Origin: Myxococcota bacterium
GTDB lineage: Bacteria > Myxococcota_A > UBA796 > GCA-2862545
Direction of reading: 5' to 3'
Assembly: GCA_041389565.1 (NCBI GenBank)
Contig: JAWKRP010000037.1
Location: 5,708 to 69,707, forward strand
DNA: 64,000 nucleotides
Below the pieces are notes generated by a model. That model was not told the origin of the DNA, ran no database searches, and worked only from the letters and a program-made list of their open reading frames with translations. Position numbers and translations under genes: made by a program. This document shows, piece after piece, positions 39,391-53,581 of this stretch (its first letter is position 1; each line of letters opens with the position of its first letter).

Positions 39391-40449
39391 TCAGAGCGGG
39401 GTGGGCTCCCAGTCGCATCCCGCGGAGCCCGGGCTCGCGCAGCACCGCGTGATCGTGTCGCGGGCGAGCCCGAAGCTCGCTTCCCAGGCCGCCTCGTCGA
39501 CGGCGAGCTCCGGGGGCATCCAGGTCGCCAGCGCCCACAGATCCGTGCCGGGTGCGTTCCTCACGATCGCCTGGTGACCGGGGAGCTTCTGCAGGCCGGT
39601 CGAGTCGGCGACCCACGAGTCGCACGTGTTCCCGGACGTGATGCGGTGACACGCCGTGCACGCCGCGGCATCCGGCGACACCAGGTGCATCGTGCCGTTC
39701 GACACGAGCTCTCCGTCGAGCGTCACCCGCGAGAAGCCCGCGCTCGTGTACTCCCCGGTCTGCCAGCCCACGGACTCCAGGAACGGCGTGTACACGAACG
39801 GGTCGTTGTCGTGGCAGTAGGTGCAGCTCTCGCCGTTCGTCCGGTAGAAGAACCGCTCGAACGCCTCGTGATCGTCGGGGGTTCCCGCGGCCAGATCGAG
39901 CGGCGGCAGGTTCCGCCCGGCGATCCCGGTGCCGTCGTCGTCGTCGAACCAACAGGACGCGCCGTTCCGGCGATTGTGGAGGATGACGCCCACATCGTCG
40001 AACGGCGTGTCGTCGTCGGGGTTCGCCACCGGGTGGTTGTAGCGGCAGATCCACTTCACGGTCACCGTGCCGTGTGTGAGCTGACCCAGGCGCCCGCCCG
40101 AGCTGCACGTGCCGTACAGCAGCGACGGGTTCGCGCACTCGGTCGCGTCGAGCGCGGCGGGGACGAGCGTTCCGTCCTCCAGGGCCGTGCTCACGACGAT
40201 CTCGGCGCCCTCGGAGCATTGCAGCTCGTCGACCGAAGGCAGCCAGCCGTCCATCGCCGCCTTGCACTGGCACGAGTAGCACACGTGCTTCTCCAGCTCG
40301 GTCGCGCTGGAAGCGCACGCTGCGGTGCAGTCGGTCTCGGGCACGTCGGTCTCGGACACGTCGGTGTCGAGCGGCACCGGCTCGGGGTCCGATCCGGCGC
40401 AGCCGATCGCCAACAGGAGCAGCACACGAAGTCCCATCCCGCCCGTCAT
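39391..40449 (-). CDS. Cys-rich lipoprotein with two CxxCH motifs (possible di-haem c-type cytochrome)
   Basis: MTGGMGLRVLLLLAIGC lipobox (ATG at 40449 or 40437). Short acidic DTDVSETDVPETD stretch. CTYCH and CTACH lie ~60 aa apart. More than 20 Cys in total. Confidence 0.7.
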   Translation of the reverse strand: MTGGMGLRVLLLLAIGCAGSDPEPVPLDTDVSETDVPETDCTAACASSATELEKHVCYSCQCKAAMDGWLPSVDELQCSEGAEIVVSTALEDGTLVPAALDATECANPSLLYGTCSSGGRLGQLTHGTVTVKWICRYNHPVANPDDDTPFDDVGVILHNRRNGASCWFDDDDGTGIAGRNLPPLDLAAGTPDDHEAFERFFYRTNGESCTYCHDNDPFVYTPFLESVGWQTGEYTSAGFSRVTLDGELVSNGTMHLVSPDAAACTACHRITSGNTCDSWVADSTGLQKLPGHQAIVRNAPGTDLWALATWMPPELAVDEAAWEASFGLARDTITRCCASPGSAGCDWEPTPL

Positions 40450-41981: not shown

Positions 41982-42056
41982 GGGACTCCCGGAGCGAGGT
42001 GGCGCCGACTGTACCGCACCCACCCGAACCGTGTCTGGGCGCGAGCCCACGAGCTC

Positions 42057-42617
42057 TCACAACCGGGCGGCCGCCGTCTCGAACTCCTCCCGCGACACCC
42101 CGAGGTGGTTGAGCCGGCGCAGCAGCTGCCGGGCGTTCCCGTAGCCCAGGTTCAGCGCGTTCCCGAGCCGGATCCGCCGCTCACGGGCGTCGGGCGTTCC
42201 CTGGAGGCCGAACCGGAGCAGGTCGGACAGCGCGAACTCGGCGCGCGGCTCCGTCTGGCCCGCACGCACGGCCTCGAGCGCCGCCCGGATCGCAGCGGGC
42301 GCGGCGTTCTCGATGCCGATGTCCCCCTCGCGCGTGCAGTCCTCCCGGGCGACGTACGCGTGCTTGCACGGCCCCACGTGCGCTTCGATCCGCCGCCGGA
42401 GCTGCTCGCCCACGGGGTCGGGGTCGGTGAGCACGATCACCCCGCAGGTGCCGAGCGCGCGCCGGATCCGCATCACCACGTCGGGACCCAGCACGAACCC
42501 GTTCGTCTCGACCACCTCCGCGTCGACGGCCTGGCGAACGGCGGAGATGTCGTGGATGCCCTCCACCACGATGAGCTCGCGAATCACGGCGTCCTCCGGT
42601 CCCCGCCTAACGGGCAT
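42057..42617 (-). CDS. rnmV: Ribonuclease M5 (Toprim domain, 5S rRNA maturase family)
   Basis: IRELIVVEGIHDISAVRQAVDAEVVETNGF...VIVLTDPDPVGEQLRRRI is the RNase M5 Toprim signature. The C-terminal DUF4093-like part has LGNALNLGYGNARQLLRRLN. A GTG at 42587 is an alternative start. Confidence 0.8.
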   Translation of the reverse strand: MPVRRGPEDAVIRELIVVEGIHDISAVRQAVDAEVVETNGFVLGPDVVMRIRRALGTCGVIVLTDPDPVGEQLRRRIEAHVGPCKHAYVAREDCTREGDIGIENAAPAAIRAALEAVRAGQTEPRAEFALSDLLRFGLQGTPDARERRIRLGNALNLGYGNARQLLRRLNHLGVSREEFETAAARL

Positions 42618-44745
42618 GGTGCACGGACGCGCGGTCGACTACCTGCAACCCGTGCAACCCGACCCCGAACCCTCGCGAGTGCTCCCGCGGCGACTGGTCG
42701 ATCTGCGAGCGTTCGACGCGCTCCGGCGGAACGAGCAGACCCGCCTGATGCTGCTCGGCGTGCTCGTGGGCGTGCTCGGCGGCGTGTCGGCGGCCCTGTT
42801 CGACGGGCTCACCGTGCTGACGGGTCGGCTGCTGCTCGGCACCTCCGAGCCCAGCATCACCGCGGTCGACGTCGTGTGGTCGCTCGGCGGACCCCTCGTC
42901 GGAGCCGTCGTGGCCGGGTCCATCGTCACCTGGCTCGTGCGGGAGTCCCGCCCGCGCGGCATCGCCGACGTGGTCGCGGCCGTGGGCATCGACGGGGGGC
43001 GCGTCTCCGCGAGGGACGGTGTGGCGTCCGCCGCAGCCGCCGCCATCGCGCTCGGGAGCGGCCACTCCGGCGGTCGGGAGGGGCCCATCGTCCAGCTCGC
43101 GTCGTCGCTGGCGAGCACGGCGTGCCGTCGGCTGGACATCGCACCATCGCGCATCCGGGTGCTCGTCGCGGCCGGGGCGGCGGCGGGGATCGCCGCGAGC
43201 TTCAACACGCCCATCGGGGGTGCGTTCTTCGCGATGGAGGTGCTGCTCGGGAGCTTCGCGCTCGAGGGATTCGCGCCGATCGTCGCGGCGACGGTCACCG
43301 CCACGGTCGTGGGCCAGGCCCTGCTCGGCGAGCGGCTCGCGCTGAACCTGCCCCCGTTCGACCTCGTGAGCCCCGTCGAGCTCCTGATCTATCCGCTGCT
43401 CGGGGTCCTCTGCGGCGGCGTAGCCATCGCGCTGAAGGAGGTCTACCTCCGCGCGGGCGACGCCTGGGACCGCATCCCGGTGCCGCCCCCGCTCCGTCCC
43501 GTCGCTCCCGGCCTGGCCGCCGGAGCCCTCGGCGCGCTCGGGATGCCCGCGGTGATGGGCAACGGATACGCCTTCGTGGAGGAGCTGCTGGAGGGCTGGA
43601 ACGCGCCACTGTGGCTGCTGGCGCTCGTCCTGGTCGCGAAGGTGGCGACCACCGCGCTCTCGGTCGCCGGGCGGTCGGGCGTCGGGGTGTTCGCGCCCAC
43701 CCTGTTCATCGGCGCCATCACCGGCACGCTGTTCGGCACCGTCGCCCAGACCGTGATGCCCGGCTCCATCGCGCCCGCCGGTGCGTACGGCATGGTCGGC
43801 ATGGGCGCGGTCGTCGCCGCGCTCACGAAGTCCCCCATCACCATGGCGCTGATGCTGTTCGAGATGACGGGGAACTACCAGGTCGTGCTGCCGGTGCTCC
43901 TCACGCTCGCCGTGTCGGGGGTCGTGTACAGCGTCGGCGAGCCCATCTCGCTGTACGTCGGGCAGCTCGCCCGGCGCGGCATCGATGTCACGCGAAACCG
44001 CGAGCAGCTCGTGATGTACGAGCTCCGCGTCGCCGACGTGATGCGGCGCGAGGTCGTGGCGCTGCCCGTGCACGCGCCGTTCGCGCGGCTGGCGCACAAG
44101 TTCCTCGAGCGGCGCCTGCGCGACGTGTTCGTGGTCGACGAAGAGGGCCGGTACCACGGGCTGATCGACATCCAGGACGTGAAGGGCCTGCTCGGCCAGC
44201 CCCACGACGAGCTGTCCGTCGACGACGTCGAGCGCCGCGACATCCCCAGCCTGTCGCCCGATCTGCCGCTCGCCGAAGCCATGCCGTCGTTCTTCCGCCA
44301 CGACCTCGAGGAGCTGCCCGTGGTCGACGCCGCCGGGGTGCTCGTGGGCGTGCTCACCGAGCGCGACGTCGTCGCCGCGTTCCACCGCGAGGTGCTCCGC
44401 AAGGAGACCCTGCTCGCGCGCATCGAGTCCGGCGCCGACCTCGAGCGGCGTGTCGACTTCCTCGAGCTCCCCGAAGGCCAGCGCATGGGCCCGGTCGCCG
44501 TGGACGCCGAGCTCGCCGGGCACACGCTGCGTGAGCTCGAGATGCCGTCGAGGTTCGGGGTCACCGTCATCGCGGTGGACGTCTGGGATGCCCAGGCCCA
44601 CCGCCACCACCGCATGGCCGCCCAGGCCGACCTCCGCCTGCAGGAAGGCGACCGCCTCGTCGTGATGGGCCCAGAGGCCGCCATCGACCGCCTGTCCCTG
44701 CCTCCCGGCGACCGCGGACCCGACGGCGTGGACATCGAAGACTGA
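42616..44745 (+). CDS. ClC-family voltage-gated chloride channel / H+-Cl- antiporter with CBS pair and TrkA-C (RCK_C) domain
   Basis: ClC selectivity motifs GSGHSGGREGP and GIAASFNTPIGGAFFAMEV. Later two CBS-like segments, then a TrkA_C-like L..G..L.EL......GVTVIAV......RLQEGDRLVVMG. The start may be a downstream GTG (42652 or 42679). Confidence 0.88.
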   Translation: MVHGRAVDYLQPVQPDPEPSRVLPRRLVDLRAFDALRRNEQTRLMLLGVLVGVLGGVSAALFDGLTVLTGRLLLGTSEPSITAVDVVWSLGGPLVGAVVAGSIVTWLVRESRPRGIADVVAAVGIDGGRVSARDGVASAAAAAIALGSGHSGGREGPIVQLASSLASTACRRLDIAPSRIRVLVAAGAAAGIAASFNTPIGGAFFAMEVLLGSFALEGFAPIVAATVTATVVGQALLGERLALNLPPFDLVSPVELLIYPLLGVLCGGVAIALKEVYLRAGDAWDRIPVPPPLRPVAPGLAAGALGALGMPAVMGNGYAFVEELLEGWNAPLWLLALVLVAKVATTALSVAGRSGVGVFAPTLFIGAITGTLFGTVAQTVMPGSIAPAGAYGMVGMGAVVAALTKSPITMALMLFEMTGNYQVVLPVLLTLAVSGVVYSVGEPISLYVGQLARRGIDVTRNREQLVMYELRVADVMRREVVALPVHAPFARLAHKFLERRLRDVFVVDEEGRYHGLIDIQDVKGLLGQPHDELSVDDVERRDIPSLSPDLPLAEAMPSFFRHDLEELPVVDAAGVLVGVLTERDVVAAFHREVLRKETLLARIESGADLERRVDFLELPEGQRMGPVAVDAELAGHTLRELEMPSRFGVTVIAVDVWDAQAHRHHRMAAQADLRLQEGDRLVVMGPEAAIDRLSLPPGDRGPDGVDIED

Positions 44746-45236
44746 TGGTGCTGCTCGCCCTCGCGTGCGCGAACGACCCGTGCCCCACGGGCTGGACGCA
44801 CGACGCGCCCCGCACGGCACACCTGGAGGCCCTGCTCCAGCGTCCGATCTCCGCGACCCTGTGCTGGGGTGACGTGCCGGACCGCGGCCTGCGCGACACC
44901 CGGGGCCGGTTCCTGCTCGACTCCGCCACCGACGACCGCCTGCTCGCCGCCCGCATCGTGCACCTCGAGCACCACCGCGCGCCCGCGTCCGGTCCGGGCT
45001 GCGAAGACCGCCTGCGCGTCGAGGAAGCGAACGCATGGGCCGCGGAGCTCCGCCAGCACGGGCTCCTGGGGGTGTCCGATCCCTCGGGTCCCGCCCGGCG
45101 CGCCCTCGGCGAGTCGCCCACCCTCTCGGACCTGATGGAGTGGCTCACTACGTCCGACGACCCCGTGCCGACCCAGCTCCGCGCCTCGCATCGCGCCCGC
45201 TGCGAAGGTGGTAGCGTCCCCCCGGAGGCACGGTGA
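44745..45236 (+). CDS. Small lipoprotein, unknown function
   Basis: The ATG shares its A with the ClC stop (TGATG). MVLLALAC lipobox. 163 aa with 5 Cys. Confidence 0.65.
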   Translation: MVLLALACANDPCPTGWTHDAPRTAHLEALLQRPISATLCWGDVPDRGLRDTRGRFLLDSATDDRLLAARIVHLEHHRAPASGPGCEDRLRVEEANAWAAELRQHGLLGVSDPSGPARRALGESPTLSDLMEWLTTSDDPVPTQLRASHRARCEGGSVPPEAR

Positions 45237-45685
45237 TCTCGCTCATCCTCGGTTCCCTGGCGCTCGCGGACGTCGTCCACCCGCCGCATCCCTGCCCGCC
45301 CGGCGCGGGCGGACGCTCCGATCACGCCGGCAGCTACTGCGTCGCACAGGGCTGCGGAGACGGGTGTGCCGAGGGCCTCGAGTGCCGCCCGACGGGCCTG
45401 TGTGTCGAGGAGGTGATGCGCGACGATGGCGGCCGCGACTCGGAGCCGCGGTCCCACCGCATGGCCGACTCGGCCTGCGAGACCCAGGACGACTGCAGCG
45501 GGGAAGCCACCTGTGTGGTCGAGGACCGATGTGTGCGGCCCCCGCCTCCTCCGCCGGAGCCTGCTCCCGAGCCCGCCTCCTCCCTGTGCGGCTGCACCAC
45601 CAGTGGCGTGATGCCCGCGTTCGTCCTGGCCTTCAGCCTGCTGCCCCTGGCGTTCCGCCGTCGTGTCACCGAGGATCCCCGATGA
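45233..45685 (+). CDS. Cys-rich secreted mini-protein with MYXO-CTERM-like tail (paralog A)
   Basis: GTG overlaps the upstream stop (GTGA). MISLILGSLALADVVHPPHPCPPGAGGRSDHAGSYCV...CETQDDCSGEATCVVEDRCV, a Pro-rich linker, and tail LCGCTTSGVMPAFVLAFSLLPLAFRRR. Confidence 0.72.
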   Translation: MISLILGSLALADVVHPPHPCPPGAGGRSDHAGSYCVAQGCGDGCAEGLECRPTGLCVEEVMRDDGGRDSEPRSHRMADSACETQDDCSGEATCVVEDRCVRPPPPPPEPAPEPASSLCGCTTSGVMPAFVLAFSLLPLAFRRRVTEDPR

Positions 45686-46092
45686 TCGCGCTCCTGTCGC
45701 TCGCGCTCGCCGACGTGGTCGGGCCGCCCCCCGACGACTGCCCGCCCGGCGCCTCCGGAACCTCGAGCCACGGGGGCCCGTACTGTGTGCCCTCCACGTG
45801 CGACGGCACCTGCGAGGAGGGCGGCACCTGCGAGCCCGCCGGCCTGTGTGTGCTCGAAGAGACCCGCGAGTGCGGGGGCATGCAAGACCCCGAGAACCCA
45901 TGCACGTACCTGCACCGCGAGGCCAGGGGCACGTGCCAGACCCAGGACGACTGCACGGGCGGGACCACGTGCGAGATCGCGGATCGCTGCGTCACGGCGG
46001 GCCCGGTGTGCGGGTGTGCCTCGACGGGCGCGCTCCCGACGGCCGTTCTGCTGCTCGGCCTGCTCCCGCTCGCGGTCCGACGCGCCCGGTAG
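45682..46092 (+). CDS. Cys-rich secreted mini-protein with MYXO-CTERM-like tail (paralog B)
   Basis: ATG overlaps the upstream stop (ATGA). MIALLSLALADVVGPPPDDCPPGASGTSSHGGPYCV...CQTQDDCTGGTTCEIADRCV and tail VCGCASTGALPTAVLLLGLLPLAVRRAR. Confidence 0.75.
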   Translation: MIALLSLALADVVGPPPDDCPPGASGTSSHGGPYCVPSTCDGTCEEGGTCEPAGLCVLEETRECGGMQDPENPCTYLHREARGTCQTQDDCTGGTTCEIADRCVTAGPVCGCASTGALPTAVLLLGLLPLAVRRAR

Positions 46093-46104
46093 ATCCGGCG
46101 GAGA

Positions 46105-46650
46105 TCAGGCGCGCACGGGCCACCGGCCCTCGACCCAGCACGCCACCAGGGCCGCGTGGGACAACGGCTTCGACAGGTCGTCGACGTCGCCGTTCGTCAT
46201 GTAGTCGAGCAGCACCACGTCCCCGTCCCGTACCAGCGCTCGCAAACGCTCGACCGGCTCGGACAGGTGGGTCTCGAGGACGTGGCGGTAGAGGGGCAGG
46301 AAGATCTGCCAGCGCGACTCGCGGTAGTCGAGCAGCCCCTCCCCGAACCGATGGCCGAGGCACGGGCCGAACCGACGCACGCTGCGCTTCAGGCCCTTCA
46401 TCGTGGTGTTCTCCATCACCGCGTCGTCGACCCCGGTGGACTCGAACACCTTCAGGCCCTGCCAGATCCCTTCGACGCTCGCGCCCACCCGACCGGGCTG
46501 GCCCGGCACGGGGATGCCGCCGTGCGGGAAGAACGGGCTGAACCGCACCCACGGCGCGTCGGCGCGGGACGTGACGTCGACGATCGCGAAGCCCGGGTAC
46601 TTCTTCTGCAGCTTGTCGACCGGCGTGTGCCGGCTGTGGACGCGGATCAT
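46105..46650 (-). CDS. Conserved-looking hypothetical protein (181 aa), family not recognised
   Basis: ATG-initiated with balanced composition (FSPFFPHGGIPVP, SVEGIWQGLKVFE, WQIFLPLYRHV). The opposite-strand ORF is Arg/Val/Asp-rich and looks spurious. Confidence 0.68.
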   Translation of the reverse strand: MIRVHSRHTPVDKLQKKYPGFAIVDVTSRADAPWVRFSPFFPHGGIPVPGQPGRVGASVEGIWQGLKVFESTGVDDAVMENTTMKGLKRSVRRFGPCLGHRFGEGLLDYRESRWQIFLPLYRHVLETHLSEPVERLRALVRDGDVVLLDYMTNGDVDDLSKPLSHAALVACWVEGRWPVRA

Positions 46651-46773
46651 CGCGACCCTCTCCTACTTGAGGTCTGTTTGACTCTATCTCGTGGATCGAG
46701 ACTCTGTCCACCCCTCGACCTTCGGACACGCGCCCGCACAAGCCCGCCGACCCCGGTCGGGATAGACGCCCGC

Positions 46774-47112
46774 ATGACCACGCTCCCGTCCCACAAGCTC
46801 GTCTTCTCCGACTCCACGGGGCTCCCGTTCGGCGTCGTGCACCTCGCGCCGTCCGAGTCCGACCCCCTGAAGGGCGACTGCATCTTCGACATGGAGGCCC
46901 GCACGCCCGCGCAGGACTGCCGCGACGAGGTGCGGTGGCTCGCGAAGCGCCACTACCAGCGGTGGTCGGAGCACAAGTTCGCGGTCGACGACGACGGCGT
47001 GATCACCATCAAGAAGGCCAGCTTCTCGCTGATCCTCGACCCCGCCGAAGACGGCGAGGGCTTCGTGTCGCGCCCGCCGGCACCGCGCGTCACGGCTTCC
47101 TGGGGCGACTGA
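46774..47112 (+). CDS. Hypothetical small protein (112 aa)
   Basis: ATG at 46774 in frame with ORF 46156..47112. Varied composition (KRHYQRWSEHKFAVDDDGVITIKK). The 3' end overlaps the convergent kinase gene by 23 nt. Confidence 0.5.
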   Translation: MTTLPSHKLVFSDSTGLPFGVVHLAPSESDPLKGDCIFDMEARTPAQDCRDEVRWLAKRHYQRWSEHKFAVDDDGVITIKKASFSLILDPAEDGEGFVSRPPAPRVTASWGD

Positions 47113-48028
47113 ACCAGCCGCGCACCCACCCGAGGAACCCCGTCTTCTCGGGCGTTCCGGAGGCCCGGTACAGCTCGCCCATCCACTCGGGCTCGAGCGA
47201 CGTGGATCCCGCGACCGCGTCAGCCGTGCGCGCGATCGCCCGCGCCATCGCCTCGGCAGTCGGGTAGCGGTCGACCGGGACGGCCGAAGCTCCCCGCCGG
47301 ATGAGCGCGGCCGCGTGGGGCTCGAGCGCGTCGAGGCCCTCGGGATCCTCCCACAGCCGGCGCGGCTTCTTGCCGGTGAGCATGTGGTACAGCGTGGCGG
47401 TGACCCCGTACAGGTCGGACTCCGGGCCCACCGTGTGTGCATCGTCTTCCTGCTCCGGCGCCCGATAGCCCCGCGTGCCCATGAGCTGGCCGGGCAGCGT
47501 CTTCACGGGCACCGTGCCCTCCGGGTGCCTCGCGATGCCGAAGTCGGCGAGCAGCGCGTGGCCCGCGGCGTCCAGCAGCACGTTCTCGGGCTTCACGTCG
47601 CGGTGGATCAGGCCCTTCGCGTGCACCGCGTGCAGCGCCGACGTGATCTCGAACGCGATCCGGAGCGCCTGCATCGTGGGGATCGTGCCCTCGGCGTGCA
47701 CCCGCTGCGCGACGGAGCCGCCCTCCGCGAGGTCCATCACGAACCAGTAGAAGTTGCCCTCGCGCCCCGCCTTGTGGACCCGGGGCAGGTGCGGGTGCGG
47801 GATCGCCGCGAGCACCTTCGCCTCCGCGAGGAACCGGGTGCCGATCTGGGAGCGGGCGCCCATCGGCACCCGCATGATCTTCACGGCGACCTCGGCCCCC
47901 GTCTGGCGGTCTTCTCCGTGGAAGACCTCCGCGACCGCACCCGCGCCGATGAGCCCGAACACCGCGTAGCGCTGCTCGCCGACCTCGTTGGGTCGAACGT
48001 CGAACAGGCCCTCGGTGTCGTCGGACAT
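47090..48028 (-). CDS. Ser/Thr protein kinase (catalytically competent Hanks-type)
   Basis: IGAGAVAEVF, VAVKIM (catalytic Lys), HRDVKPENVLL, DFGIA and GTRGYRAPE are all present. Confidence 0.92.
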   Translation of the reverse strand: MSDDTEGLFDVRPNEVGEQRYAVFGLIGAGAVAEVFHGEDRQTGAEVAVKIMRVPMGARSQIGTRFLAEAKVLAAIPHPHLPRVHKAGREGNFYWFVMDLAEGGSVAQRVHAEGTIPTMQALRIAFEITSALHAVHAKGLIHRDVKPENVLLDAAGHALLADFGIARHPEGTVPVKTLPGQLMGTRGYRAPEQEDDAHTVGPESDLYGVTATLYHMLTGKKPRRLWEDPEGLDALEPHAAALIRRGASAVPVDRYPTAEAMARAIARTADAVAGSTSLEPEWMGELYRASGTPEKTGFLGWVRGWFSRPRKP

Positions 48029-48035
48029 GGCGTGC

Positions 48036-51000
48036 CTAGGCCCGCAGCTGGCGGCGGTGGCCGATGGCCGCCATGCGCGACAGGACGGCGTCGACGCGCG
48101 ACTCCGGCAGCTGCTCGCACACGCGGTCGGTGGCGCGGTCGATCAGGTCCAGCAACACCTTGTTCAGCAGGCGCCGGCGCTCCGGCTCCGCGCGGGCCTG
48201 CATGGCGGTGACGAAGAACGGGCCCGGCAGCGCGGCCTCGTCGAGCTCGAGACCCTTCAACAGGCCCGCGTGCTCACGGGGGTTCGCCGACACCAGCAGC
48301 TGGAGCGTGGCCTGCCCGCTCCCGGGGCCCAGCTCGGCGTCGAGCGCATTGAACAGCACGCGGAACGCGCGGTTCGCGACCCGCACCTTCTCCAGGCACT
48401 CCCCTTCGGTCCACTCGGCCGACGCGGCGCGGATCGCGAAGTCGACCTCGGCGGGGTCGACCACGAGGGTCGTTCCCTCCCCCGAGCCCGCGGGCATCTC
48501 GGAGTCTTCGGGCAGCGCGTCGTCTTCGAGCGCGGACGTGGGGATGAGCGGACGCAGCGGCGGCGTGCGCGTGAACTGGAGCGAGGTGTGCCCGATCTCG
48601 ATCATGTCGCCGTCGTCGAGCTGCAGCGGACCGTCGACCGGCTTGCCGTTCAGCCGCGTGCCGTTCGAGCTCCCCGCGTCTTCGAGCACGAACTGGCCGT
48701 CGATCTCGCGGATCACGCAGTGCACGCGCGACAGCAGCCCGTCGGTACGGATCTGGAGCTCGCACGACCCGCCGCGCCCGATGCGGAAGCTCTCCGACGC
48801 CACGGGGACGGGACGCCCGACGAGACTCCCGTCCTGCAGGATCAGGGTGGGCCGCAGCGGACCGAGCGACGGCCGTGGCATCTCGAGAGGGGTGCCCGTC
48901 GGAGCCCGCGCTGCGCGGTACTGGAACGCGCGGCTGCCGAACATCACGACCTCGTCGGAGTACAGCTGCCGCGCCGACAGACGGCCCACGAACCCCGAGG
49001 CGTTCGAGAGGTCCTGCTCGATGTAGTGCATCCCGGCGCGCTGGAGGATGGCGGCCAGCGTGTCTTCCTGCTCTTCGCCCGAGAACGCGATGCGGCCGTC
49101 GGGCAGCTCGATCACGAACACCTCGGGACGCTCGAGGCTGATGCCCACCTGCTCGTCGCCGTCCTCCCACAGGAGCGCGGCGCCCGCTGCATCGAGCTCG
49201 TCGACCGGACGACCGGGCAGCGGCGCGGACATGGGCGCGAACAGGGCTTCGATGGAGTCGGACATCGACTCCGACTCACCGGTGTGCTCGGTCTCCTCGT
49301 CGGCGTGGTCGATCTCGGAGGGGTCGGGCTGGGTGAACGCCTGGCGGTCCTGCACGCGCAGGAACGTGATGGGCACGCCGTCCCAGTCGAGCCGATCGCC
49401 GCCCCGCATGCGGAACTCCGCGGCCCGCACGCCCTCCCGCTCGAGCACCCCGCGCTCCACGGACAGGTAGATGCGGTCGCCGTGCTTGGACGCGAGCAGA
49501 TCGCCCGGGAGACCGGGCGCGAGCGCGGGCGTGATCACCCGGGACGCCTCGATCTCGTGGCGTGTGACGCCGAGCCCCGAGCCCACCACCAGCATGGGGA
49601 TCTCGGGGGCTTCGAGCAGGAGGTCCTCGTCTTCGTCGACGTCGAGATCGTCGAGCTCCACGAGGGGCGTCTCGCGGGCGAACAGCGGCGTCAGGAACGC
49701 ATCTTCGGCCCACTCGGCCTCGGACGGCCACGACCGGCAGAACACGAGCTCGCGCTGGAGCTCGGGGTCGAAGTCGGGCCCGTCGTCGCTCCAACTGCTC
49801 GCGCTCGCGATGGGGAACGACGCAGTGTGGTGCGCGCCGCCCGACCACAGGTTCCGCACGACGGCGATGTGCGGCACGCGCTCGGGGAACGCGTCGAGCA
49901 GCCGGTCGAAGAGCTGCGGGCCGATGGCCGACCGGTACGACAGCACGTCGACCACCGCAGCCGCCCACGAGGACGGGCGCTCCCAGTCGGCGCGCTCCGC
50001 GAGCGCCGCGCCGAAGCGGTCGGTGGACAGGGCCTTCCGCGCCCCGCCCGGTTCGACGAGCTCCGCGAGCAGCCGGGCCAGGCCCTCGTGCGGACCGAAG
50101 CGCAGCGGAGCGGGCGGACCCGCCGAAGCGCCCAGCTGCGCGCGCTCGATGACGTACAGGCCCCACCAGGCCTCGAGGTGCAGCGGCGTGTACGCGATGG
50201 CCTCGTCGTACGCCTCGACGGCCTCGTCGGTGTGGCCCGCGAAGCGCAGCAGGTGACCGAGGTGTACGAGGCGGTCGGCGTGCGCGCTCCCCTCCGTCGA
50301 CGCGTTCACCTCGACGAACCGGCGCTGGTGACCGACCGCGGCCTCGAAGGCCCCGAGCTCCTGCGATGCGCGACGGGCCACGCGCAGGGCGGGCACGTGG
50401 TGGGGCTCCAGCGCCAGCGCTTCGGTGGCGGACGCGCTCGCGGTGTCGAGGTCGCCGAGCTCGATGGCGAGACGGGCTCGTGCGGCGTGATCGGCCGCCG
50501 TGGCCCGGGACGTCCCGCACAGCACAGCGAAGTGCGCCAGCGCGCCGGGCACGTCCTGGGAGCGGAGCGCGTGGCGGGCCAGGTGGCGACGGGCCTCGGC
50601 GTGCTCGGGGTCGAGCTCGACCAGCTTCGCGTACAGCTCGGCCACGGCGTCGATGTCGGGCGTCGCGCGCCGTGCGAGCCGGGCGGCCCGCTCGAGCAGC
50701 TCGATCGAAGGACCGGGGCCCGCGACCGCCTGGCGCTTCATCAGCTCGACCACGTCGCCCCAGTCGCCCCGTGCCGTGCGGAGCTTCTCGCGCAGCGCGA
50801 ACAGCTCGGGATCGTCGACCCCTTCGTCGGCCGCGCGATCGAGCCAGAGCAGCGCGCTGGAGTCCGACCCGGCCTCGTGGAACGCGCGACCGAGGCGCCA
50901 CGCCAGCGGACCGCGCTCGTCGGCGTCGGCGTACAGGGCCAGCGCACGCCCCCAGCGCAGGAAGCGATCCCCGTCGAGGCTCGCGAGCCCGCGCAGGGCG

Positions 51001-52517
51001 GCCACGGCCTCGGCCCGGGTTCCGTGCGTCTCGAGCGCGCGCTCCCACGAGTCGACCACGCCCTCCATGCCGTTCGCCTGCTGGATCTGCGCGATCTCGA
51101 GCCACAGCGACGCGGCATCCGACGCCGAGCTCGCCAGCTCGGTGAGCGCGACCACCGCGGCTCGCGGATCCCCCTGGGAAGCGCGCGTCCGCGCCAGACG
51201 CACGCGCAGCGCTTCGGTCTCGGGGCCCGCATCCGGGCGCTTCTCGAGCAGGTCGAGCAGGTCTTCCGCCCGCGTGTCACGACCGTCGTCGAGCGCCTGC
51301 CGCACGAGCGAGCGTAGCCGCGCCGTGTCGGCGAGCAGGGCTTCCCGCACCGTGCCCACGGAGGTGGGGCGCATCGACGGATCCCAGCTCACGCACGCCG
51401 CCACGACCGACCCCAGAGGCTCGGGCAGCGCGAGCTGGGTGAGCAGGCGCTGGGCATCCCGGAGCACCCAGTACGGCAGCGGCGCGCCGTGGAACGCCAG
51501 CAACGCCAGCATGCCGAGCCCGTACACGTCGTGTGTGATCTGGAGCTTCGCGCCGGGCTCCAGGCTCTCGGGGGCCGCGAACAGCACGGCGGGAGCGACC
51601 GCTTCGAGCTTCGCGAGCCCGAAACCGCCCACGGCAGCGGACCCATCGGCACGCACGAGCACGCGCTCGGGCTCCAGCCCCCCGTGCACGACCCCGCTCT
51701 CGTGCGCGAACGCCAGGCCCTCCGTCACGTCGAGCAGCGCCAGCAGGAGCCGGTCGACCGACGCGCCTTCGAGCACCGCCATCAGATCGTGCTCGCTCAC
51801 CTGCTCGCGGGCGTACCAGGCACGCCCGTCGGGCAGGGTGCCGGACGCCAGCAGCTCCGCGACGCCGGGATGCTCGAGCTTCGACCACCCCGCGCAGGCC
51901 GCGAGCAGCTCCGGCGCGGACCCGCGCACATGGGGATGGAGCGCGGCCAGCACCGCCGCACGACCCGCTGCGCGGTCTTCGGCCGACCAGTAGGCGAACG
52001 CGGCATCGGAGCCGAGCGCACCGAGCACCCGGAACCGGCCGTCGACGTACGCTCCCGGCTCCAGGCCCTGCGGCACCTCCACGCTCGCGTCGCCCATCGT
52101 GAGGCGTGCGGCGATGCGCTCCCGCTCCGCGGCATCCTGCCCGGGCTCGTACCGCGCGGCCCGCGGGCGCGGACCCATCGCAGACCACGCGCCGATGGAC
52201 CGCTCCGCGTGGGCCTCCTGCACGAGCGGAACGTCGTCGGGCACGAGCGCACAGGGCGCCAGGCCCACCTGCACCGCCAGCAGCTCGACCTCGCCGGCCG
52301 CCCGGCGCGACAGGAGCGTCTCCCATGCGCGCGAGCCGAACCACCCGTCTGCGACGAGCTCGTCACTGATCGCCACCGCGACCCGCTCGGGCTTGCCGAG
52401 CTTCTTCAGCACCGCCGCGCTGCCGAGGTCTCCCGCCGACACCGCGAGGGTGGCGGACACCGCGGCAGTGGGCGCCCACGGATGAGAAACGGATCGACTG
52501 ACGACGAGCAGCGGCAT
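48036..52517 (-). CDS. Giant scaffold: N-terminal unknown domain + degenerate kinase (pseudokinase) + TPR region + FHA domain(s)
   Basis: ATG at 52517 (MPLLVVSRS...). Kinase-like region ~51333..52049 reads HGGLEPERVLV where HRDLKPEN is expected and GGFGLAK where DFG is expected, with no VAIK Lys. APE is retained. Long TPR-like Ala/Leu repeats. Canonical FHA at 48573..48788 (FRIGRGGSCELQI...SRVHCVI...LEDAGSSNGTRLNG). Confidence 0.88.
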   Translation of the reverse strand: MPLLVVSRSVSHPWAPTAAVSATLAVSAGDLGSAAVLKKLGKPERVAVAISDELVADGWFGSRAWETLLSRRAAGEVELLAVQVGLAPCALVPDDVPLVQEAHAERSIGAWSAMGPRPRAARYEPGQDAAERERIAARLTMGDASVEVPQGLEPGAYVDGRFRVLGALGSDAAFAYWSAEDRAAGRAAVLAALHPHVRGSAPELLAACAGWSKLEHPGVAELLASGTLPDGRAWYAREQVSEHDLMAVLEGASVDRLLLALLDVTEGLAFAHESGVVHGGLEPERVLVRADGSAAVGGFGLAKLEAVAPAVLFAAPESLEPGAKLQITHDVYGLGMLALLAFHGAPLPYWVLRDAQRLLTQLALPEPLGSVVAACVSWDPSMRPTSVGTVREALLADTARLRSLVRQALDDGRDTRAEDLLDLLEKRPDAGPETEALRVRLARTRASQGDPRAAVVALTELASSASDAASLWLEIAQIQQANGMEGVVDSWERALETHGTRAEAVAALRGLASLDGDRFLRWGRALALYADADERGPLAWRLGRAFHEAGSDSSALLWLDRAADEGVDDPELFALREKLRTARGDWGDVVELMKRQAVAGPGPSIELLERAARLARRATPDIDAVAELYAKLVELDPEHAEARRHLARHALRSQDVPGALAHFAVLCGTSRATAADHAARARLAIELGDLDTASASATEALALEPHHVPALRVARRASQELGAFEAAVGHQRRFVEVNASTEGSAHADRLVHLGHLLRFAGHTDEAVEAYDEAIAYTPLHLEAWWGLYVIERAQLGASAGPPAPLRFGPHEGLARLLAELVEPGGARKALSTDRFGAALAERADWERPSSWAAAVVDVLSYRSAIGPQLFDRLLDAFPERVPHIAVVRNLWSGGAHHTASFPIASASSWSDDGPDFDPELQRELVFCRSWPSEAEWAEDAFLTPLFARETPLVELDDLDVDEDEDLLLEAPEIPMLVVGSGLGVTRHEIEASRVITPALAPGLPGDLLASKHGDRIYLSVERGVLEREGVRAAEFRMRGGDRLDWDGVPITFLRVQDRQAFTQPDPSEIDHADEETEHTGESESMSDSIEALFAPMSAPLPGRPVDELDAAGAALLWEDGDEQVGISLERPEVFVIELPDGRIAFSGEEQEDTLAAILQRAGMHYIEQDLSNASGFVGRLSARQLYSDEVVMFGSRAFQYRAARAPTGTPLEMPRPSLGPLRPTLILQDGSLVGRPVPVASESFRIGRGGSCELQIRTDGLLSRVHCVIREIDGQFVLEDAGSSNGTRLNGKPVDGPLQLDDGDMIEIGHTSLQFTRTPPLRPLIPTSALEDDALPEDSEMPAGSGEGTTLVVDPAEVDFAIRAASAEWTEGECLEKVRVANRAFRVLFNALDAELGPGSGQATLQLLVSANPREHAGLLKGLELDEAALPGPFFVTAMQARAEPERRRLLNKVLLDLIDRATDRVCEQLPESRVDAVLSRMAAIGHRRQLRA

Positions 52518-52609
52518 GCATCCCCCGGGTCGGGAAGCATACAGGCGGTCGCGCATCGGCGCACCGCCTGGGCCTTGCGGGTCGCGGCATCCTCGCGCTA
52601 CACCGGCCC

Positions 52610-53581
52610 ATGCGGATCGAATTCGACGAGGTCGCACGGGAGCTGTTGCGGGCCCTGCGGGGTCCGCGGTCCCAGGTCGCGTGGTCGCGGAGGCTCGGGT
52701 ACGGGTCGAACGTGGCGTACCCCTGGGAGTCCGGGCGCCGCTATCCGTCCGCGAGCGAAGCGCTGCGCGCGATCCGTCGGTCCGGGCGCGACCTCGAAGG
52801 GGGGCTCGAGGCCTTCTTCGGCCGCCGGCCCGCCTGGATGGACACCACCCCGCCCGACACCCCCGAAGGCGTCGCGCTGCTGCTGGCTTCGCTCCGCGGG
52901 AAGCGGTCGATCACCGACCTCGCCGACGCCACGGGCCTGAACCGCCATGCCATCGGGCGCTGGATGGGCGGGCGCACCCAGCCGCGGCTTCCCGACTTCC
53001 TGCACCTCGTGCAGGCCACCTCCGTGCGGCTGATCGACTTCGTCACCGCGTTCGTGCCGCCCGAGGAGATGCCGTACACCATCGAGCCGCTGTGGCGCGC
53101 GATGGAAGCGAGGCGCGAGGGAGCGCAGCGGCACCCGTGGACCCAGGCGATCCTCAGGGTGCTCGAGCTGCAGGACTACCTCGACCTGCGACGCCACACG
53201 CCGGGCTGGATCGCGGAGCGGCTTCGCATCCCGCTCGAGGTCGAGGAGACCTGCCTGAAGTTCCTGCGCGACACCGGCCAGCTCGCCTGGACCGGCACGC
53301 ACTACCGCCAGGAGGTCGTGGCGGTCGACACCAAGCGCCGTCCGGAGATCGGGCGGCAGCTGAAGGCCCACTGGGCGCAGGTGGCGGCGGAGCGGGTGGT
53401 CGACGGGAACCCGGGCCAGTTCTCGTACAACGTGTTCGCGTGCTCCGACGAGGACTTCGAGAAGATCCGCGAGCTGCATCTGGCGTACTTCCGGGCACTG
53501 CGGAGCATCGTGTCGGATGCCACGGTCGGCGAGCGGGTGGTGGTCGCGAACGTGCAGCTGTTCGCGCTCGACGTGGACTGA
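52610..53581 (+). CDS. HTH regulator of the TIGR02147 / DUF4423 family
   Basis: XRE-type HTH SITDLADATGLNRHAIGRWMGGRTQP, then a DUF4423-like C-terminal half (HPWTQAILRVLEL..., FSYNVFACSDEDFEKIRELHLAYFRAL). Divergent from the giant scaffold gene across a 92-bp spacer. Confidence 0.75.
   Translation: MRIEFDEVARELLRALRGPRSQVAWSRRLGYGSNVAYPWESGRRYPSASEALRAIRRSGRDLEGGLEAFFGRRPAWMDTTPPDTPEGVALLLASLRGKRSITDLADATGLNRHAIGRWMGGRTQPRLPDFLHLVQATSVRLIDFVTAFVPPEEMPYTIEPLWRAMEARREGAQRHPWTQAILRVLELQDYLDLRRHTPGWIAERLRIPLEVEETCLKFLRDTGQLAWTGTHYRQEVVAVDTKRRPEIGRQLKAHWAQVAAERVVDGNPGQFSYNVFACSDEDFEKIRELHLAYFRALRSIVSDATVGERVVVANVQLFALDVD

What the first reader, a model, noticed from the sequence alone, without database searches (positions are those of the whole stretch)
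42616..46092. ClC channel translationally coupled to a lipoprotein and two paralogous Cys-rich MYXO-CTERM mini-proteins
Four same-strand genes are chained by overlapping stop and start codons: TGATG at 44743-44747, GTGA at 45233-45236, ATGA at 45682-45685. The first is a ClC anion channel or antiporter with a CBS pair and a TrkA-C domain. The second is a 163-aa lipoprotein. The last two are ~140-aa paralogs with the same architecture. Each has an ultrashort hydrophobic leader (MISLILGSLALA / MIALLSLALA), then DVV-x-PP, then a conserved cysteine scaffold (CPPGA.G.S.H.G.YCV..C...C.EG..C.P.GLCV ... C.TQDDC.G..TC...DRCV), and a C-terminal Cys-Gly-Cys + hydrophobic helix + RRR tail. I know of no described functional link between ClC channels and MYXO-CTERM cargo. 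The codon-level coupling suggests fixed stoichiometry, so these may be surface-anchored partners or regulators of an anion-flux system.
Basis: partly seen in the sequence, partly recalled or inferred. Interest (0 to 1): 0.7.

Follow-up and report, generated by a model that had tools for sequence, protein, structure and literature searches.

The report
Chloride channel beside unrelated surface-protein cassette
The four overlapping genes are real, but the chloride channel only happens to sit upstream of a separate cassette: a membrane-tethered lipoprotein plus small cysteine-rich surface proteins. That cassette turns up in 15 of 33 other myxobacterial DNA stretches, and none of the 33 has a chloride channel.

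Summary
A ClC-CBS-TrkA_C gene, a 163-aa lipoprotein gene and two paralogous Cys-rich genes (150 and 136 aa, 47% identical) are chained by TGATG, GTGA and ATGA overlaps. Two independent assemblies reproduce the cassette region.

The interpretation, a ClC-cargo functional unit, is not supported.
- The mini-proteins belong to a large unnamed family: 688 clusters at 50% identity.
- I examined 33 other loci that carry a family member. None has a ClC gene.
- 15 of the 33 have a homolog of the lipoprotein. It lies co-directional, convergent or divergent, and in one locus it is fused to a small membrane protein.
- Nothing beyond the cassette is syntenic with the two closest loci checked.
- Overlapping stop/start junctions occur at 8 or more other places in this 64-kb window, so they do not indicate a special stoichiometry.

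Best reading: an ordinary ClC gene is followed by a two-component envelope cassette. The minis are Sec-exported, disulfide-rich beta-ribbon proteins with MYXO-CTERM-type tails, presumably processed by myxosortase and displayed on the surface. The lipoprotein has an invariant HLxxH on a helix and a tentatively zincin-like fold that lacks the catalytic Glu. It is probably a non-catalytic binding partner.

Curiosity: this clade uses 10-14-residue uncharged leaders, each with a good Shine-Dalgarno site. Interest is low to moderate.

The parts
42616..44745 (+). ClC anion channel/exchanger with a C-terminal CBS pair and TrkA_C (709 aa). It is the upstream neighbour and not part of the conserved cassette.
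   Evidence: Pfam Voltage_CLC 7.7e-78, CBS x2 5e-21, TrkA_C 2.4e-11. NCBIfam ClcB-like PRK01862 scores 369 bits, below the equivalog cutoff of 482. No ClC in the 33 other mini loci. The start codon is uncertain because it overlaps the start of the divergent RNase M5-like gene at 42057-42617.
44743..44747 (+). TGATG junction: the ClC stop (TGA 44743-44745) shares one base with the lipoprotein ATG (44745-44747).
   Evidence: Sequence read. No strong Shine-Dalgarno site upstream (by eye). No ATG/GTG/TTG for 71 in-frame codons upstream.
44745..45236 (+). 163-aa lipoprotein. It has a 7-residue leader (MVLLALA) and Cys8 at 44766-44768. It is the conserved partner of the mini-proteins and has a tentatively zincin-like fold.
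   Evidence: Homologs with canonical lipoboxes lie next to mini genes in 15 of 33 loci. AlphaFold2 gives pLDDT 89.0 and pTM 0.82. Best Foldseek matches are the BlaR1 Zn-protease domain (E 0.18) and PprI/IrrE, none significant. Pfam DUF6782 'putative metallopeptidase' hits only below threshold (E 0.018). No other Pfam, NCBIfam or PDB sequence match.
44961..44975 (+). HLEHH (His73-Leu74-x-x-His77). The family-invariant HLxxH motif sits on helix 64-75. Leu occupies the position of the catalytic Glu in HExxH zincins.
   Evidence: H73, L74, H77, E94 and E101 are invariant in alignments A6 and A7. Helix assignment.
45224..45228 (+). GGAGG Shine-Dalgarno site, 4 nt upstream of the mini-A GTG start.
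45233..45685 (+). Mini-protein A (150 aa). From N to C: a 12-residue uncharged leader MISLILGSLALA, mature N-terminus DVV, a Cys-rich beta-ribbon domain, a Pro-rich linker, then a Cys-Gly-Cys + hydrophobic helix + RRR tail.
   Evidence: It belongs to a family with 688 representatives at E<=1e-3. Eleven columns are invariant in the 42-sequence alignment, including Asp13, His31 and seven Cys. AlphaFold2 gives pLDDT 85.1 overall and 92-98 in most of the core. A TAG lies 7 codons upstream of the GTG with no alternative start. No Pfam or NCBIfam family covers the domain.
45587..45664 (+). MYXO-CTERM-type tail of mini-A (Cys119 to Arg144).
   Evidence: TIGR03382 scores 13.1 bits (cutoff 15.85) and CGP_CTERM 14.7 (cutoff 21), both below threshold. 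It aligns with the tails of homologs that pass TIGR03901. Predicted helix at 128-145.
45671..45675 (+). GAGGA Shine-Dalgarno site, 6 nt upstream of the mini-B ATG start.
45682..46092 (+). Mini-protein B (136 aa), a paralog of mini-A with a 10-residue leader MIALLSLALA.
   Evidence: 47% identical to mini-A, E = 8e-26. 57% identical to the single mini of locus L003.
46009..46089 (+). MYXO-CTERM-type tail of mini-B (Cys110 to Arg136).
   Evidence: TIGR03901 scores 13.4 bits against a cutoff of 20. Family-level support.

Best explanation
The locus is two things placed side by side.

**(1) An ordinary ClC gene.** It encodes an anion channel or exchanger with cytoplasmic CBS and TrkA_C regulatory domains.

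**(2) A self-contained envelope cassette.** It occurs in many Polyangia-type Myxococcota and consists of a membrane-tethered partner protein plus one or more small Cys-rich surface proteins.

**Proposed mechanism.**
- The minis are exported by Sec and their leader is cut at the conserved AxA|D site.
- Their roughly 95-residue domain is oxidised into a disulfide-locked beta-ribbon.
- Their C-terminal Cys + transmembrane helix + Arg tail is handled as a MYXO-CTERM signal. That means lipidation of the Cys, cleavage by a myxosortase encoded elsewhere, and delivery to the cell surface, where the domain sits on a flexible linker.
- The lipoprotein keeps a zincin-like layout: backing helix, three strands, a helix carrying HLxxH, then a helix with an invariant Glu. 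Leu replaces the catalytic Glu, so it most likely binds rather than cuts. I propose it docks or escorts the minis at the periplasmic face of a membrane, perhaps through their invariant mature N-terminus D-V-V-x-P-P.

**The ClC adjacency** is specific to this lineage. The overlapping stop/start codons reflect this genome's general tight gene packing and at most co-transcription.

**Shown:** gene identities, paralogy, family size, lipoprotein-mini linkage, absence of ClC elsewhere, confident folds.

**Inferred:** the export route, myxosortase processing, the pseudo-zincin assignment and the binding role.
For: - **ClC domains:**
- **Mini family:** 688 representatives with E<=1e-3 and 221 with E<=1e-10. 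The conserved architecture includes an invariant AD at the leader cleavage site.
- **MYXO-CTERM tails:** 21 of 42 family members hit TIGR03901 at E<=0.1, and two of the nine members scanned individually pass its cutoff.
- **Published mechanism:** the MYXO-CTERM tripartite tag, MrtX cleavage and surface sorting are described in PMC11980579.
- **ClC absent elsewhere:** 0 of 33 loci.
- **Lipoprotein linkage:** a homolog is present in 15 of 33 loci. It is co-directional in L001, L003, L033 and L035, convergent in L005-8, L010, L015, L021 and L022, and divergent in L030. L018 has one about 2 kb away. In L034 it is fused to a roughly 110-aa membrane protein that also neighbours the cassette in L001, L003 and L033.
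- **No other conserved neighbour** across loci L001-L020 outside the syntenic Polyangium clade, and no synteny with the window.
- **Folds:** confident AlphaFold2 models.
- **Zincin-like hints:** Foldseek top hits are the BlaR1 metalloprotease domain and PprI/IrrE, sub-threshold DUF6782, and invariant H73, L74, H77 and E94.
- **Overlaps are common:** at least 8 other overlapping junctions in the window.
Against: - Co-transcription and translational coupling of ClC with the cassette in this organism cannot be excluded. The lipoprotein start has no good Shine-Dalgarno site and shares a base with the ClC stop, which would fit reinitiation.
- The zincin-like assignment is weak. No Foldseek hit has E<=0.001 (best 0.18, probability about 0.3). 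The Pfam DUF6782 hit scores 14.8 bits against a cutoff of 27. hhalign against a DUF4344 putative metallopeptidase found nothing.
- The window tails fail the MYXO-CTERM model cutoffs.
- No myxosortase gene was looked for. The window's proteins were not scanned for a CPBP protease, apart from the genes next to the cassette.
- The leaders are 7 to 12 residues with no basic residue, which is atypical for Sec or Lsp substrates, so export is assumed from homology only.
- 18 of the 33 mini loci lack a detectable lipoprotein homolog. Many of those contigs are short, but the partner is not obligatory for the family.
Confidence: 0.6

Rival explanations
1. The ClC, the lipoprotein and the two minis form one functional system. 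The surface- or periplasm-anchored proteins regulate or partner the anion-flux protein, and codon overlap enforces fixed stoichiometry.
For: All four genes are on the same strand with no intergenic space. The lipoprotein start lacks a clear Shine-Dalgarno site and overlaps the ClC stop, which fits reinitiation coupling. No terminator-like or promoter-like site was found between the genes.
Against: 0 of 33 other loci with a mini homolog contain a ClC. The closest relatives of the cassette (L003 and L033, 50-60% identical) have quite different neighbours. Overlapping junctions are frequent in this window. The ClC regulatory domains (CBS, TrkA_C) are cytoplasmic, whereas the cassette proteins are extracytoplasmic by homology.
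Confidence: 0.06
2. The lipoprotein is an active, atypical metallopeptidase or metal-binding maturation factor. It processes the minis, for example by trimming the conserved N-terminus or the linker, rather than acting as a passive binder.
For: Two His and a downstream Glu are invariant on adjacent helices. The top Foldseek hits are zinc metalloprotease domains. Weak DUF6782 hit. The lipoprotein domain is fused to a polytopic membrane protein in L034, as in membrane-embedded signalling proteases such as BlaR1.
Against: The catalytic Glu of HExxH is an invariant Leu in every member aligned. In zincins the loss of that general base abolishes hydrolysis (established knowledge of the family). All structural and sequence similarities fall below significance.
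Confidence: 0.15
3. The minis are secreted or surface effectors in their own right, for example adhesins, metal binders or protease inhibitors. The lipoprotein is a cognate immunity or neutralising protein, making this a toxin/immunity-like or inhibitor/target-like pair.
For: The pair is tightly linked with variable orientation. There is tandem amplification and divergence of the minis: 47% identity between the neighbours here, and duplicates in L001, L009 and L033. One family member gives a weak hit to a metallocarboxypeptidase-inhibitor family at E = 0.071.
Against: No toxin-like domain is present. The minis carry membrane-anchor tails rather than release signals. More than half of the mini loci have no detectable lipoprotein. 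The weak Pfam hits come from single sequences at chance level.
Confidence: 0.12
4. The short, uncharged leaders mean the cassette in this organism is decaying or not exported, so these are non-functional remnants.
For: The leaders are 7, 12 and 10 residues with no Lys or Arg. The window tails score below the MYXO-CTERM cutoffs.
Against: The same 10-14-residue leaders, each with a GGAGG or GAGG Shine-Dalgarno site at proper spacing, recur in five other loci of the clade (L001, L002, L003, L033, L034). All family-invariant Cys, His and Asp residues are intact. Third-position GC of 0.85-0.90 for the lipoprotein and mini-A looks coding. The structure is predicted with high confidence.
Confidence: 0.05

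Closest known systems
MYXO-CTERM / myxosortase (MrtX, MrtC) surface-sorting system of Myxococcota (TIGR03901, TIGR03382; Guo, Haft & Wall 2025, PMC11980579)
   Same: The minis have an N-terminal leader and a C-terminal tripartite tail: a Cys-containing motif (CGC), a hydrophobic helix and an Arg cluster. The source is a Myxococcota MAG. Half of the aligned family members hit the MYXO-CTERM model, and two of the nine members scanned individually pass its cutoff.
   Different: The window tails score below both model cutoffs. The cargo domain has no model in Pfam or NCBIfam. The leaders are ultrashort and uncharged. A dedicated partner lipoprotein is encoded alongside. No myxosortase gene was sought or seen.
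TraA-TraB of Myxococcus xanthus (a MYXO-CTERM surface receptor encoded with a cohort envelope protein)
   Same: A Cys-rich, MYXO-CTERM-anchored surface protein is encoded next to an envelope partner protein. The last Cys-rich segment of some minis weakly resembles the Myxo_Cys_RPT repeat (TIGR04201, below cutoff). That TraA's stalk is built of such Cys-rich repeats is from my own knowledge.
   Different: There is no PA14-like variable domain and no OmpA-like TraB homolog. The minis are only about 140 aa. The partner is a small lipoprotein with an HLxxH motif. No evidence bears on kin recognition.
Gluzincin / minigluzincin metallopeptidase fold (e.g. BlaR1 M56 sensor protease domain, IrrE/PprI, Pfam DUF6782)
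   Same: The predicted order of elements matches: backing helix, three-stranded sheet, a helix with two His spaced HxxxH, then a helix with an invariant Glu 17 residues later. The top Foldseek hits are such domains.
   Different: Leu replaces the catalytic Glu in every member aligned. All matches are statistically insignificant (Foldseek E >= 0.18; Pfam 14.8 bits against 27). This is a resemblance, not an established membership.
Bacterial ClC-CBS proteins (ClcB-like, NCBIfam PRK01862)
   Same: Gene 1 aligns over nearly the whole model (positions 11-572 of 577) and has a Voltage_CLC domain plus a CBS pair.
   Different: It scores 369 bits, below the equivalog cutoff of 482. It carries an extra C-terminal TrkA_C domain. 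Whether it is a channel or an exchanger was not determined.
Cystine-knot growth-factor fold (IL-17A, NGF, VEGF-C)
   Same: Elongated disulfide-locked beta-hairpins. Several such proteins appear among the top Foldseek hits for the mini model.
   Different: Probabilities are at or below 0.08 and TM-scores at or below 0.25, so these are not significant. The mini fold currently has no solved relative.

Membership tests
ClC (Voltage_CLC, PF00654) with cytoplasmic CBS pair | Pfam Voltage_CLC and CBS matches above the gathering thresholds | tested here: met
   Voltage_CLC 262.5 bits (cutoff 24.8), CBS 75.2 bits with two stretches, TrkA_C 43.8 bits (cutoff 27).
ClC (Voltage_CLC, PF00654) with cytoplasmic CBS pair | Equivalog-level assignment to ClcA or ClcB, and channel versus exchanger type | tested here: not met
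   PRK01862 scores 369 bits against a cutoff of 482. ClcA scores 175 against 350. ClcB scores 144 against 425. The subtype is undetermined.
MYXO-CTERM cargo (TIGR03901 / TIGR03382) | Model score above the curated cutoff | tested here: not met
   Mini-B scores 13.4 bits on TIGR03901 (cutoff 20). Mini-A scores 13.1 on TIGR03382 (cutoff 15.85). Homologs P0023 (21.2) and P0034 (23.3) do pass, and 21 of 42 members hit at E<=0.1.
MYXO-CTERM cargo (TIGR03901 / TIGR03382) | Tripartite tail: a signature motif with an invariant Cys, a transmembrane helix and a C-terminal Arg cluster | tested here: met
   The tails are CGC...VMPAFVLAFSLLPLAF-RRR and CGC...LPTAVLLLGLLPLAV-RRAR. The tail Cys is nearly invariant (C121) in A4. 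Predicted helix at 128-145.
MYXO-CTERM cargo (TIGR03901 / TIGR03382) | Recognisable N-terminal signal peptide | tested here: inconclusive
   The leaders are hydrophobic and end in AxA, but they are only 10-12 residues with no basic residue. Relatives in other clades have canonical 18-26-residue leaders with Lys or Arg. No signal-peptide predictor was available.
MYXO-CTERM cargo (TIGR03901 / TIGR03382) | Host is a member of Myxococcota and encodes a myxosortase (MrtX or MrtC, CPBP family) | not tested
   A public source names the organism 'MAG: Myxococcota bacterium'. The window was not scanned for a CPBP protease, and the rest of the genome is not available here.
Bacterial lipoprotein (Lgt/Lsp substrate) | Signal peptide ending in a lipobox with an invariant Cys | tested here: inconclusive
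   The window protein starts MVLLALA-C, a 7-residue leader with a non-canonical lipobox, and no upstream start codon exists. The Cys aligns with canonical lipoboxes (LLAGC, SLGC, TVAC, STGC) in homologs. In L034 the Cys is replaced by a fused membrane domain.
Zincin metallopeptidases (HExxH; gluzincins) | HExxH motif with a catalytic Glu | tested here: not met
   The motif is HLxxH with an invariant Leu in every member aligned.
Zincin metallopeptidases (HExxH; gluzincins) | Significant sequence or structure similarity to a zincin family | tested here: not met
   The best Foldseek hit is BlaR1 at E = 0.18 and probability 0.28. Pfam DUF6782 scores 14.8 bits against 27. The PDB profile search found nothing at E<=10. 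hhalign against a DUF4344 protein found nothing.

The most novel reading that the evidence does not exclude
The cassette may be a previously unrecognised accessory module for MYXO-CTERM cargo. A catalytically dead zincin-like protein, tethered to the membrane by lipid or by fusion to a small four-helix membrane protein, would capture a specific class of cystine-locked mini-proteins through their invariant mature N-terminus and hand them to the sorting machinery. In the window's clade this would operate with 10-14-residue uncharged leaders, which would be among the shortest functional bacterial export signals. In this one lineage the module would additionally be expressed under ClC control.
Probability: 0.12. 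Interest if true: 0.6.

Novelty: new member of a known kind. Interest (0 to 1): 0.25.

Why it matters
The proposed ClC-surface cargo link would have been a new kind of ion-transport accessory system. The comparative evidence shows it is a chance neighbourhood, so that claim should be dropped.

What remains is modest but real:
- a large family of small disulfide-rich MYXO-CTERM-type proteins that no database names (688 clusters at 50% identity);
- a conserved, possibly pseudo-protease, partner lipoprotein that recurs next to them;
- in one clade, unusually short uncharged leader peptides.

These could interest people who study myxobacterial surface-protein sorting or the limits of signal-peptide recognition. 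No function is established, and nothing here opens a long-standing question.

Tried and rejected
1. **Word-indexed protein searches** with single proteins suggested the families were extremely rare: 4 and 2 hits. The exhaustive profile search showed that this was a sensitivity artefact for the minis.
2. **First scans of genome and metagenome contigs** used a pattern taken from the leader peptide and found nothing. The 42-sequence alignment was too diverse to give a usable pattern. A trimmed 10-sequence alignment worked.
3. **Pfam and NCBIfam for the Cys-rich domain** gave no family. The NF045523, Myxo_Cys_RPT and phytase hits cover only the tail or a short repeat, far below cutoff.
4. **PDB sequence profile search for the lipoprotein** found nothing at E<=10.
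5. **Foldseek against the PDB** found nothing significant for either model. The cystine-knot and zincin resemblances are leads only.
6. **hhalign of the lipoprotein family against a neighbouring DUF4344 putative metallopeptidase** aligned only the lipobox region, so the relationship was rejected.
7. **Synteny between the window and L001/L003** beyond the cassette: none. The DUF4423/HTH_31 genes in both the window and L003 gave no tblastn match to each other.
8. **The small membrane protein of L003, L033 and L034:** no Pfam family and no copy in the window. I considered a CPBP-like protease, but the order of conserved E/H/E/N residues (read by eye) does not follow the CPBP motif order, so I did not pursue it.
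9. **Promoter and terminator scan of 42000-46800:** no internal sites, only one promoter-like site for the minus-strand DUF6939 gene. This is uninformative for Myxococcota promoters.
10. **Alternative longer start codons for the three cassette genes** were excluded by in-frame stops or the absence of start codons.

Full report
**Observation.** The window has 72% G+C. On the + strand, four ORFs with coding-like third-position GC lie at 42616-44745, 44745-45236, 45233-45685 and 45682-46092 (the fourth was not scored separately). The sequence shows TGATG at 44743-44747, GTGA at 45233-45236 and ATGA at 45682-45685. Gene 1 hits Pfam Voltage_CLC (7.7e-78), CBS (two stretches) and TrkA_C. NCBIfam places it nearest ClcB-like PRK01862 but below the equivalog cutoff. 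Genes 3 and 4 are 47% identical (E = 8e-26). Two independent read-set assemblies (L038, L039) reproduce 44892-46310 at 99.8-100% identity.

**Are the overlaps special?** They are not. A scan of the window for coding-like ORFs whose start overlaps the stop of an upstream coding-like ORF by 4 nt or 1 nt found at least eight further junctions. On the + strand they are at 7275, 7997, 10600, 27559 and 32626. On the - strand they are at 21407, 20592 and 61095. This is how the genome packs co-directional genes, so the overlaps do not indicate a special stoichiometric relationship with the channel.

**The mini-protein family.** Word-indexed searches made the minis look almost unique, with 4 hits. An exhaustive profile search of 1.84 billion cluster representatives found 688 proteins at E<=1e-3 and 221 at E<=1e-10. 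Most are 135-175 aa. The 42-sequence alignment (A4) and a motif scan give the architecture:
- a leader ending in A-x-A;
- an invariant Ala-Asp at the predicted cleavage site, followed by [VA][VI]-x-P-P;
- C-P-x-G-x-x-G-x-S-x-H-x-G-x-x-C, with further invariant or nearly invariant Cys residues;
- a variable Pro/Ala/Ser linker;
- a Cys(-Gly-Cys) + hydrophobic + Arg-rich tail.

No Pfam or NCBIfam model covers the Cys-rich domain. Public names are 'hypothetical protein'.

The window tails fall below the MYXO-CTERM cutoffs: 13.4 bits against 20, and 13.1 against 15.85. However, 21 of 42 family members hit TIGR03901 at E<=0.1. Of nine members scanned individually, P0023 and P0034 pass the cutoff. 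At family level the tail is therefore a MYXO-CTERM signal as defined in PMC11980579: an invariant Cys motif, a transmembrane helix and an Arg cluster, cleaved by the CPBP protease MrtX, with surface localisation via the type II secretion system.

AlphaFold2 with the 42-sequence alignment gives a confident model. Mean pLDDT is 85 and most of the core scores 92-98. The model is made of long beta-hairpins. Foldseek finds no PDB relative (best E = 1.7). Several cystine-knot cytokines appear among the weak hits, which is only a hint.

**Genomic context, the decisive test.** I collected 33 other loci that carry a family member:
- five by exact look-up (L001, L003, L033, L034, L035);
- 16 from species-representative genomes, including Polyangium, Chondromyces, Haliangium and Sandaracinaceae MAGs;
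- 12 from metagenome contigs.

tblastn with the window ClC found no ClC in any of them. Where a co-directional upstream neighbour was identified, it differs from locus to locus:
- a 183-aa unknown protein in L001;
- an amino-acid kinase whose end overlaps the mini's start in L035;
- a 266-aa protein in L033;
- none in L003, where the upstream gene is divergent.

tblastn of all L001 and L003 genes against the window matched only the cassette genes.

**The real linkage.** A profile of the 163-aa lipoprotein finds a homolog in 15 of the 33 loci:
- co-directional in L001, L003, L033 and L035;
- convergent and immediately adjacent in five Polyangium species, Chondromyces apiculatus, L021 and L022;
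- divergent in L030;
- about 2 kb away in L018.

Clustering of all neighbouring genes in loci L001-L020 shows that no other gene family is shared outside the syntenic Polyangium group. Adjacency preserved through changes of orientation is good evidence of a functional pair.

In L034 the lipoprotein domain has lost its lipobox Cys. It is fused instead to a roughly 110-residue polytopic membrane protein. The same small protein is a separate gene next to the cassette in L003 and L033, and about 2 kb away in L001. It is absent from the window.

**The lipoprotein.** Relatives have canonical lipoboxes (LLAGC, SLGC, TVAC, STGC) aligned with Cys8 of the window protein. Invariant residues across the 16-sequence alignment include A68-A69-R70, H73-L74, H77, C86, E94, E101 and R152-C153.

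AlphaFold2 gives pLDDT 89 and pTM 0.82. The predicted order is helix, three strands, a helix ending in HLxxH, then a long helix carrying E94 and E101. This is the layout of gluzincin metallopeptidases (my reading, from established knowledge of that fold). The top Foldseek hits are the BlaR1 zinc-protease domain, PprI/IrrE and an M1 aminopeptidase. All are non-significant, with E >= 0.18. Two homologs give sub-threshold hits to Pfam DUF6782, 'putative metallopeptidase'. A PDB profile search and hhalign against a DUF4344 protein found nothing.

Because the catalytic Glu position is an invariant Leu, I read this protein as a probable pseudo-zincin. It would be a binding module rather than a protease. 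I put the zincin ancestry itself at about 50%.

**Mechanism proposed.**
- *Shown:* gene identities, paralogy, family size, lipoprotein-mini linkage, lack of any ClC linkage, confident folds.
- *From established knowledge:* MYXO-CTERM tails are lipidated at the Cys, cut by myxosortase and displayed on the surface (PMC11980579).
- *Inferred:* the minis are exported, oxidised and surface-anchored on a flexible linker. The membrane-tethered pseudo-zincin binds or escorts them, possibly through the invariant mature N-terminus.

The ClC is an unrelated housekeeping neighbour. It may be co-transcribed in this lineage only.

**Leaders.** In the window the leaders cannot be extended. A TAG lies seven codons upstream of the mini-A GTG. 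No ATG, GTG or TTG occurs in the 71 in-frame codons upstream of the lipoprotein ATG.

A survey of candidate starts and Shine-Dalgarno sites across all loci shows two groups.
- Most lineages have 18-26-residue leaders with Lys or Arg.
- The window's clade (window, L001, L002, L003, L033, L034) consistently has 10-14-residue uncharged leaders, each preceded by GGAGG or GAGG at proper spacing.

This short-leader clade is also the one in which the small membrane protein turns up: L001, L003, L033 and L034 have it, while the window and the 588-bp L002 do not. This is unexplained and was not pursued.

**Verdict.** The cassette is a new, unnamed member of the known MYXO-CTERM cargo class, with a conserved partner lipoprotein of unknown and possibly pseudo-protease nature. 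Interest is low to moderate.

Noticed in passing
window 44745-44768, 45233-45268, 45682-45711; L001 3883 and 4296; L002 68; L003 2046; L033 868 and 1863; L034 4383: The window's clade of the cassette uses ultrashort leaders with no Lys or Arg: 10-14 residues for the minis and 7 to about 9 for the lipoprotein. Each mini leader is preceded by a GGAGG or GAGG Shine-Dalgarno site. Family members in Polyangium, Haliangium and other lineages have canonical 18-26-residue leaders with basic n-regions. In L003 the lipoprotein signal region has no ATG, GTG or TTG, but a CTG sits 6 nt after a GGAGG (read by eye).
   Followed up: partly
L003 1199-1528 (-), L033 2279-2617 (-), L001 523-858 (-), L034 3550-3890 (fused): A polytopic membrane protein of about 110 aa has conserved E-x-P, T-H-P-x-V-W, A-E...A-E-A-L and A-N motifs and no Pfam family. 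It neighbours the cassette in three loci. In L034 it is fused to the N-terminus of the lipoprotein domain, replacing the lipobox Cys. It is not present in the 64-kb window.
   Followed up: partly
window 42615-42618: The ClC ATG (42616) and the start of the divergent Toprim/DUF4093 (RNase M5-like) gene at 42057-42617 (-) overlap, which leaves no intergenic promoter region. The true ClC start, or its promoter inside the neighbouring gene, is uncertain. The long ORF in the same frame begins at 42313.
   Followed up: no
P0010 (306 aa), P0015 (370 aa), P0090 (312 aa): Some family representatives are single ORFs with two complete units. P0015 and P0090 each have two leaders, two Cys-rich domains and two tails. 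In P0015 the second leader follows directly after the first RRR tail. This is the same order as the overlapping mini-A/mini-B genes here, which suggests that fusion and split forms interconvert.
   Followed up: no
window 7275, 7997, 10600, 20592, 21407, 27559, 32626, 61095: At least eight further 4-nt or 1-nt stop/start overlaps occur between coding-like ORFs. Tight coupling-style junctions are a general property of this genome.
   Followed up: yes
window 52610-53581 (+) and L003 3026-3853 (-): An HTH_31 + DUF4423 regulator gene lies within a few kb of the cassette in both the window and L003. The two give no tblastn match to each other at E<=1e-4, so this is probably a coincidence involving a family common in this phylum.
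   Followed up: partly
window 46105-46650 (-), 47090-48028 (-), 48036-52637 (-): Downstream on the opposite strand lie a DUF6939 protein (1e-69), a Ser/Thr kinase and a 1533-aa ORF that clustered by BLAST with kinase genes of other loci. By eye it also has TPR-like and FHA-like regions. A sigma-70-like promoter match (46710-46681) sits just upstream of the DUF6939 gene.
   Followed up: no
window ~39391-40300 (-): A Cys-rich ORF with a lipoprotein-like start (MGLRVLLLLAIGCAGSDPEP...) has no Pfam family. It is unrelated in sequence to the cassette.
   Followed up: no
L035 4763-7982 (Tara Oceans contig): An amino-acid kinase gene ends exactly where a mini gene starts (a shared base at 6001), followed by the lipoprotein homolog and then a DUF4344 'putative metallopeptidase' (1.8e-72). 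This is another example of an unrelated upstream gene overlapping a mini start.
   Followed up: partly
window 43060-43095, 43225-43250, 43690-43705: By eye the ClC has GSGHSGGREGP, so the gating Glu is present, and GVFAP. It reads FAMEV where E. coli ClC-ec1 has IIEEM as I recall it, i.e. Val at the 'proton glutamate' position, as in channel-type ClCs. This comparison is from memory and was not verified with an alignment.
   Followed up: no
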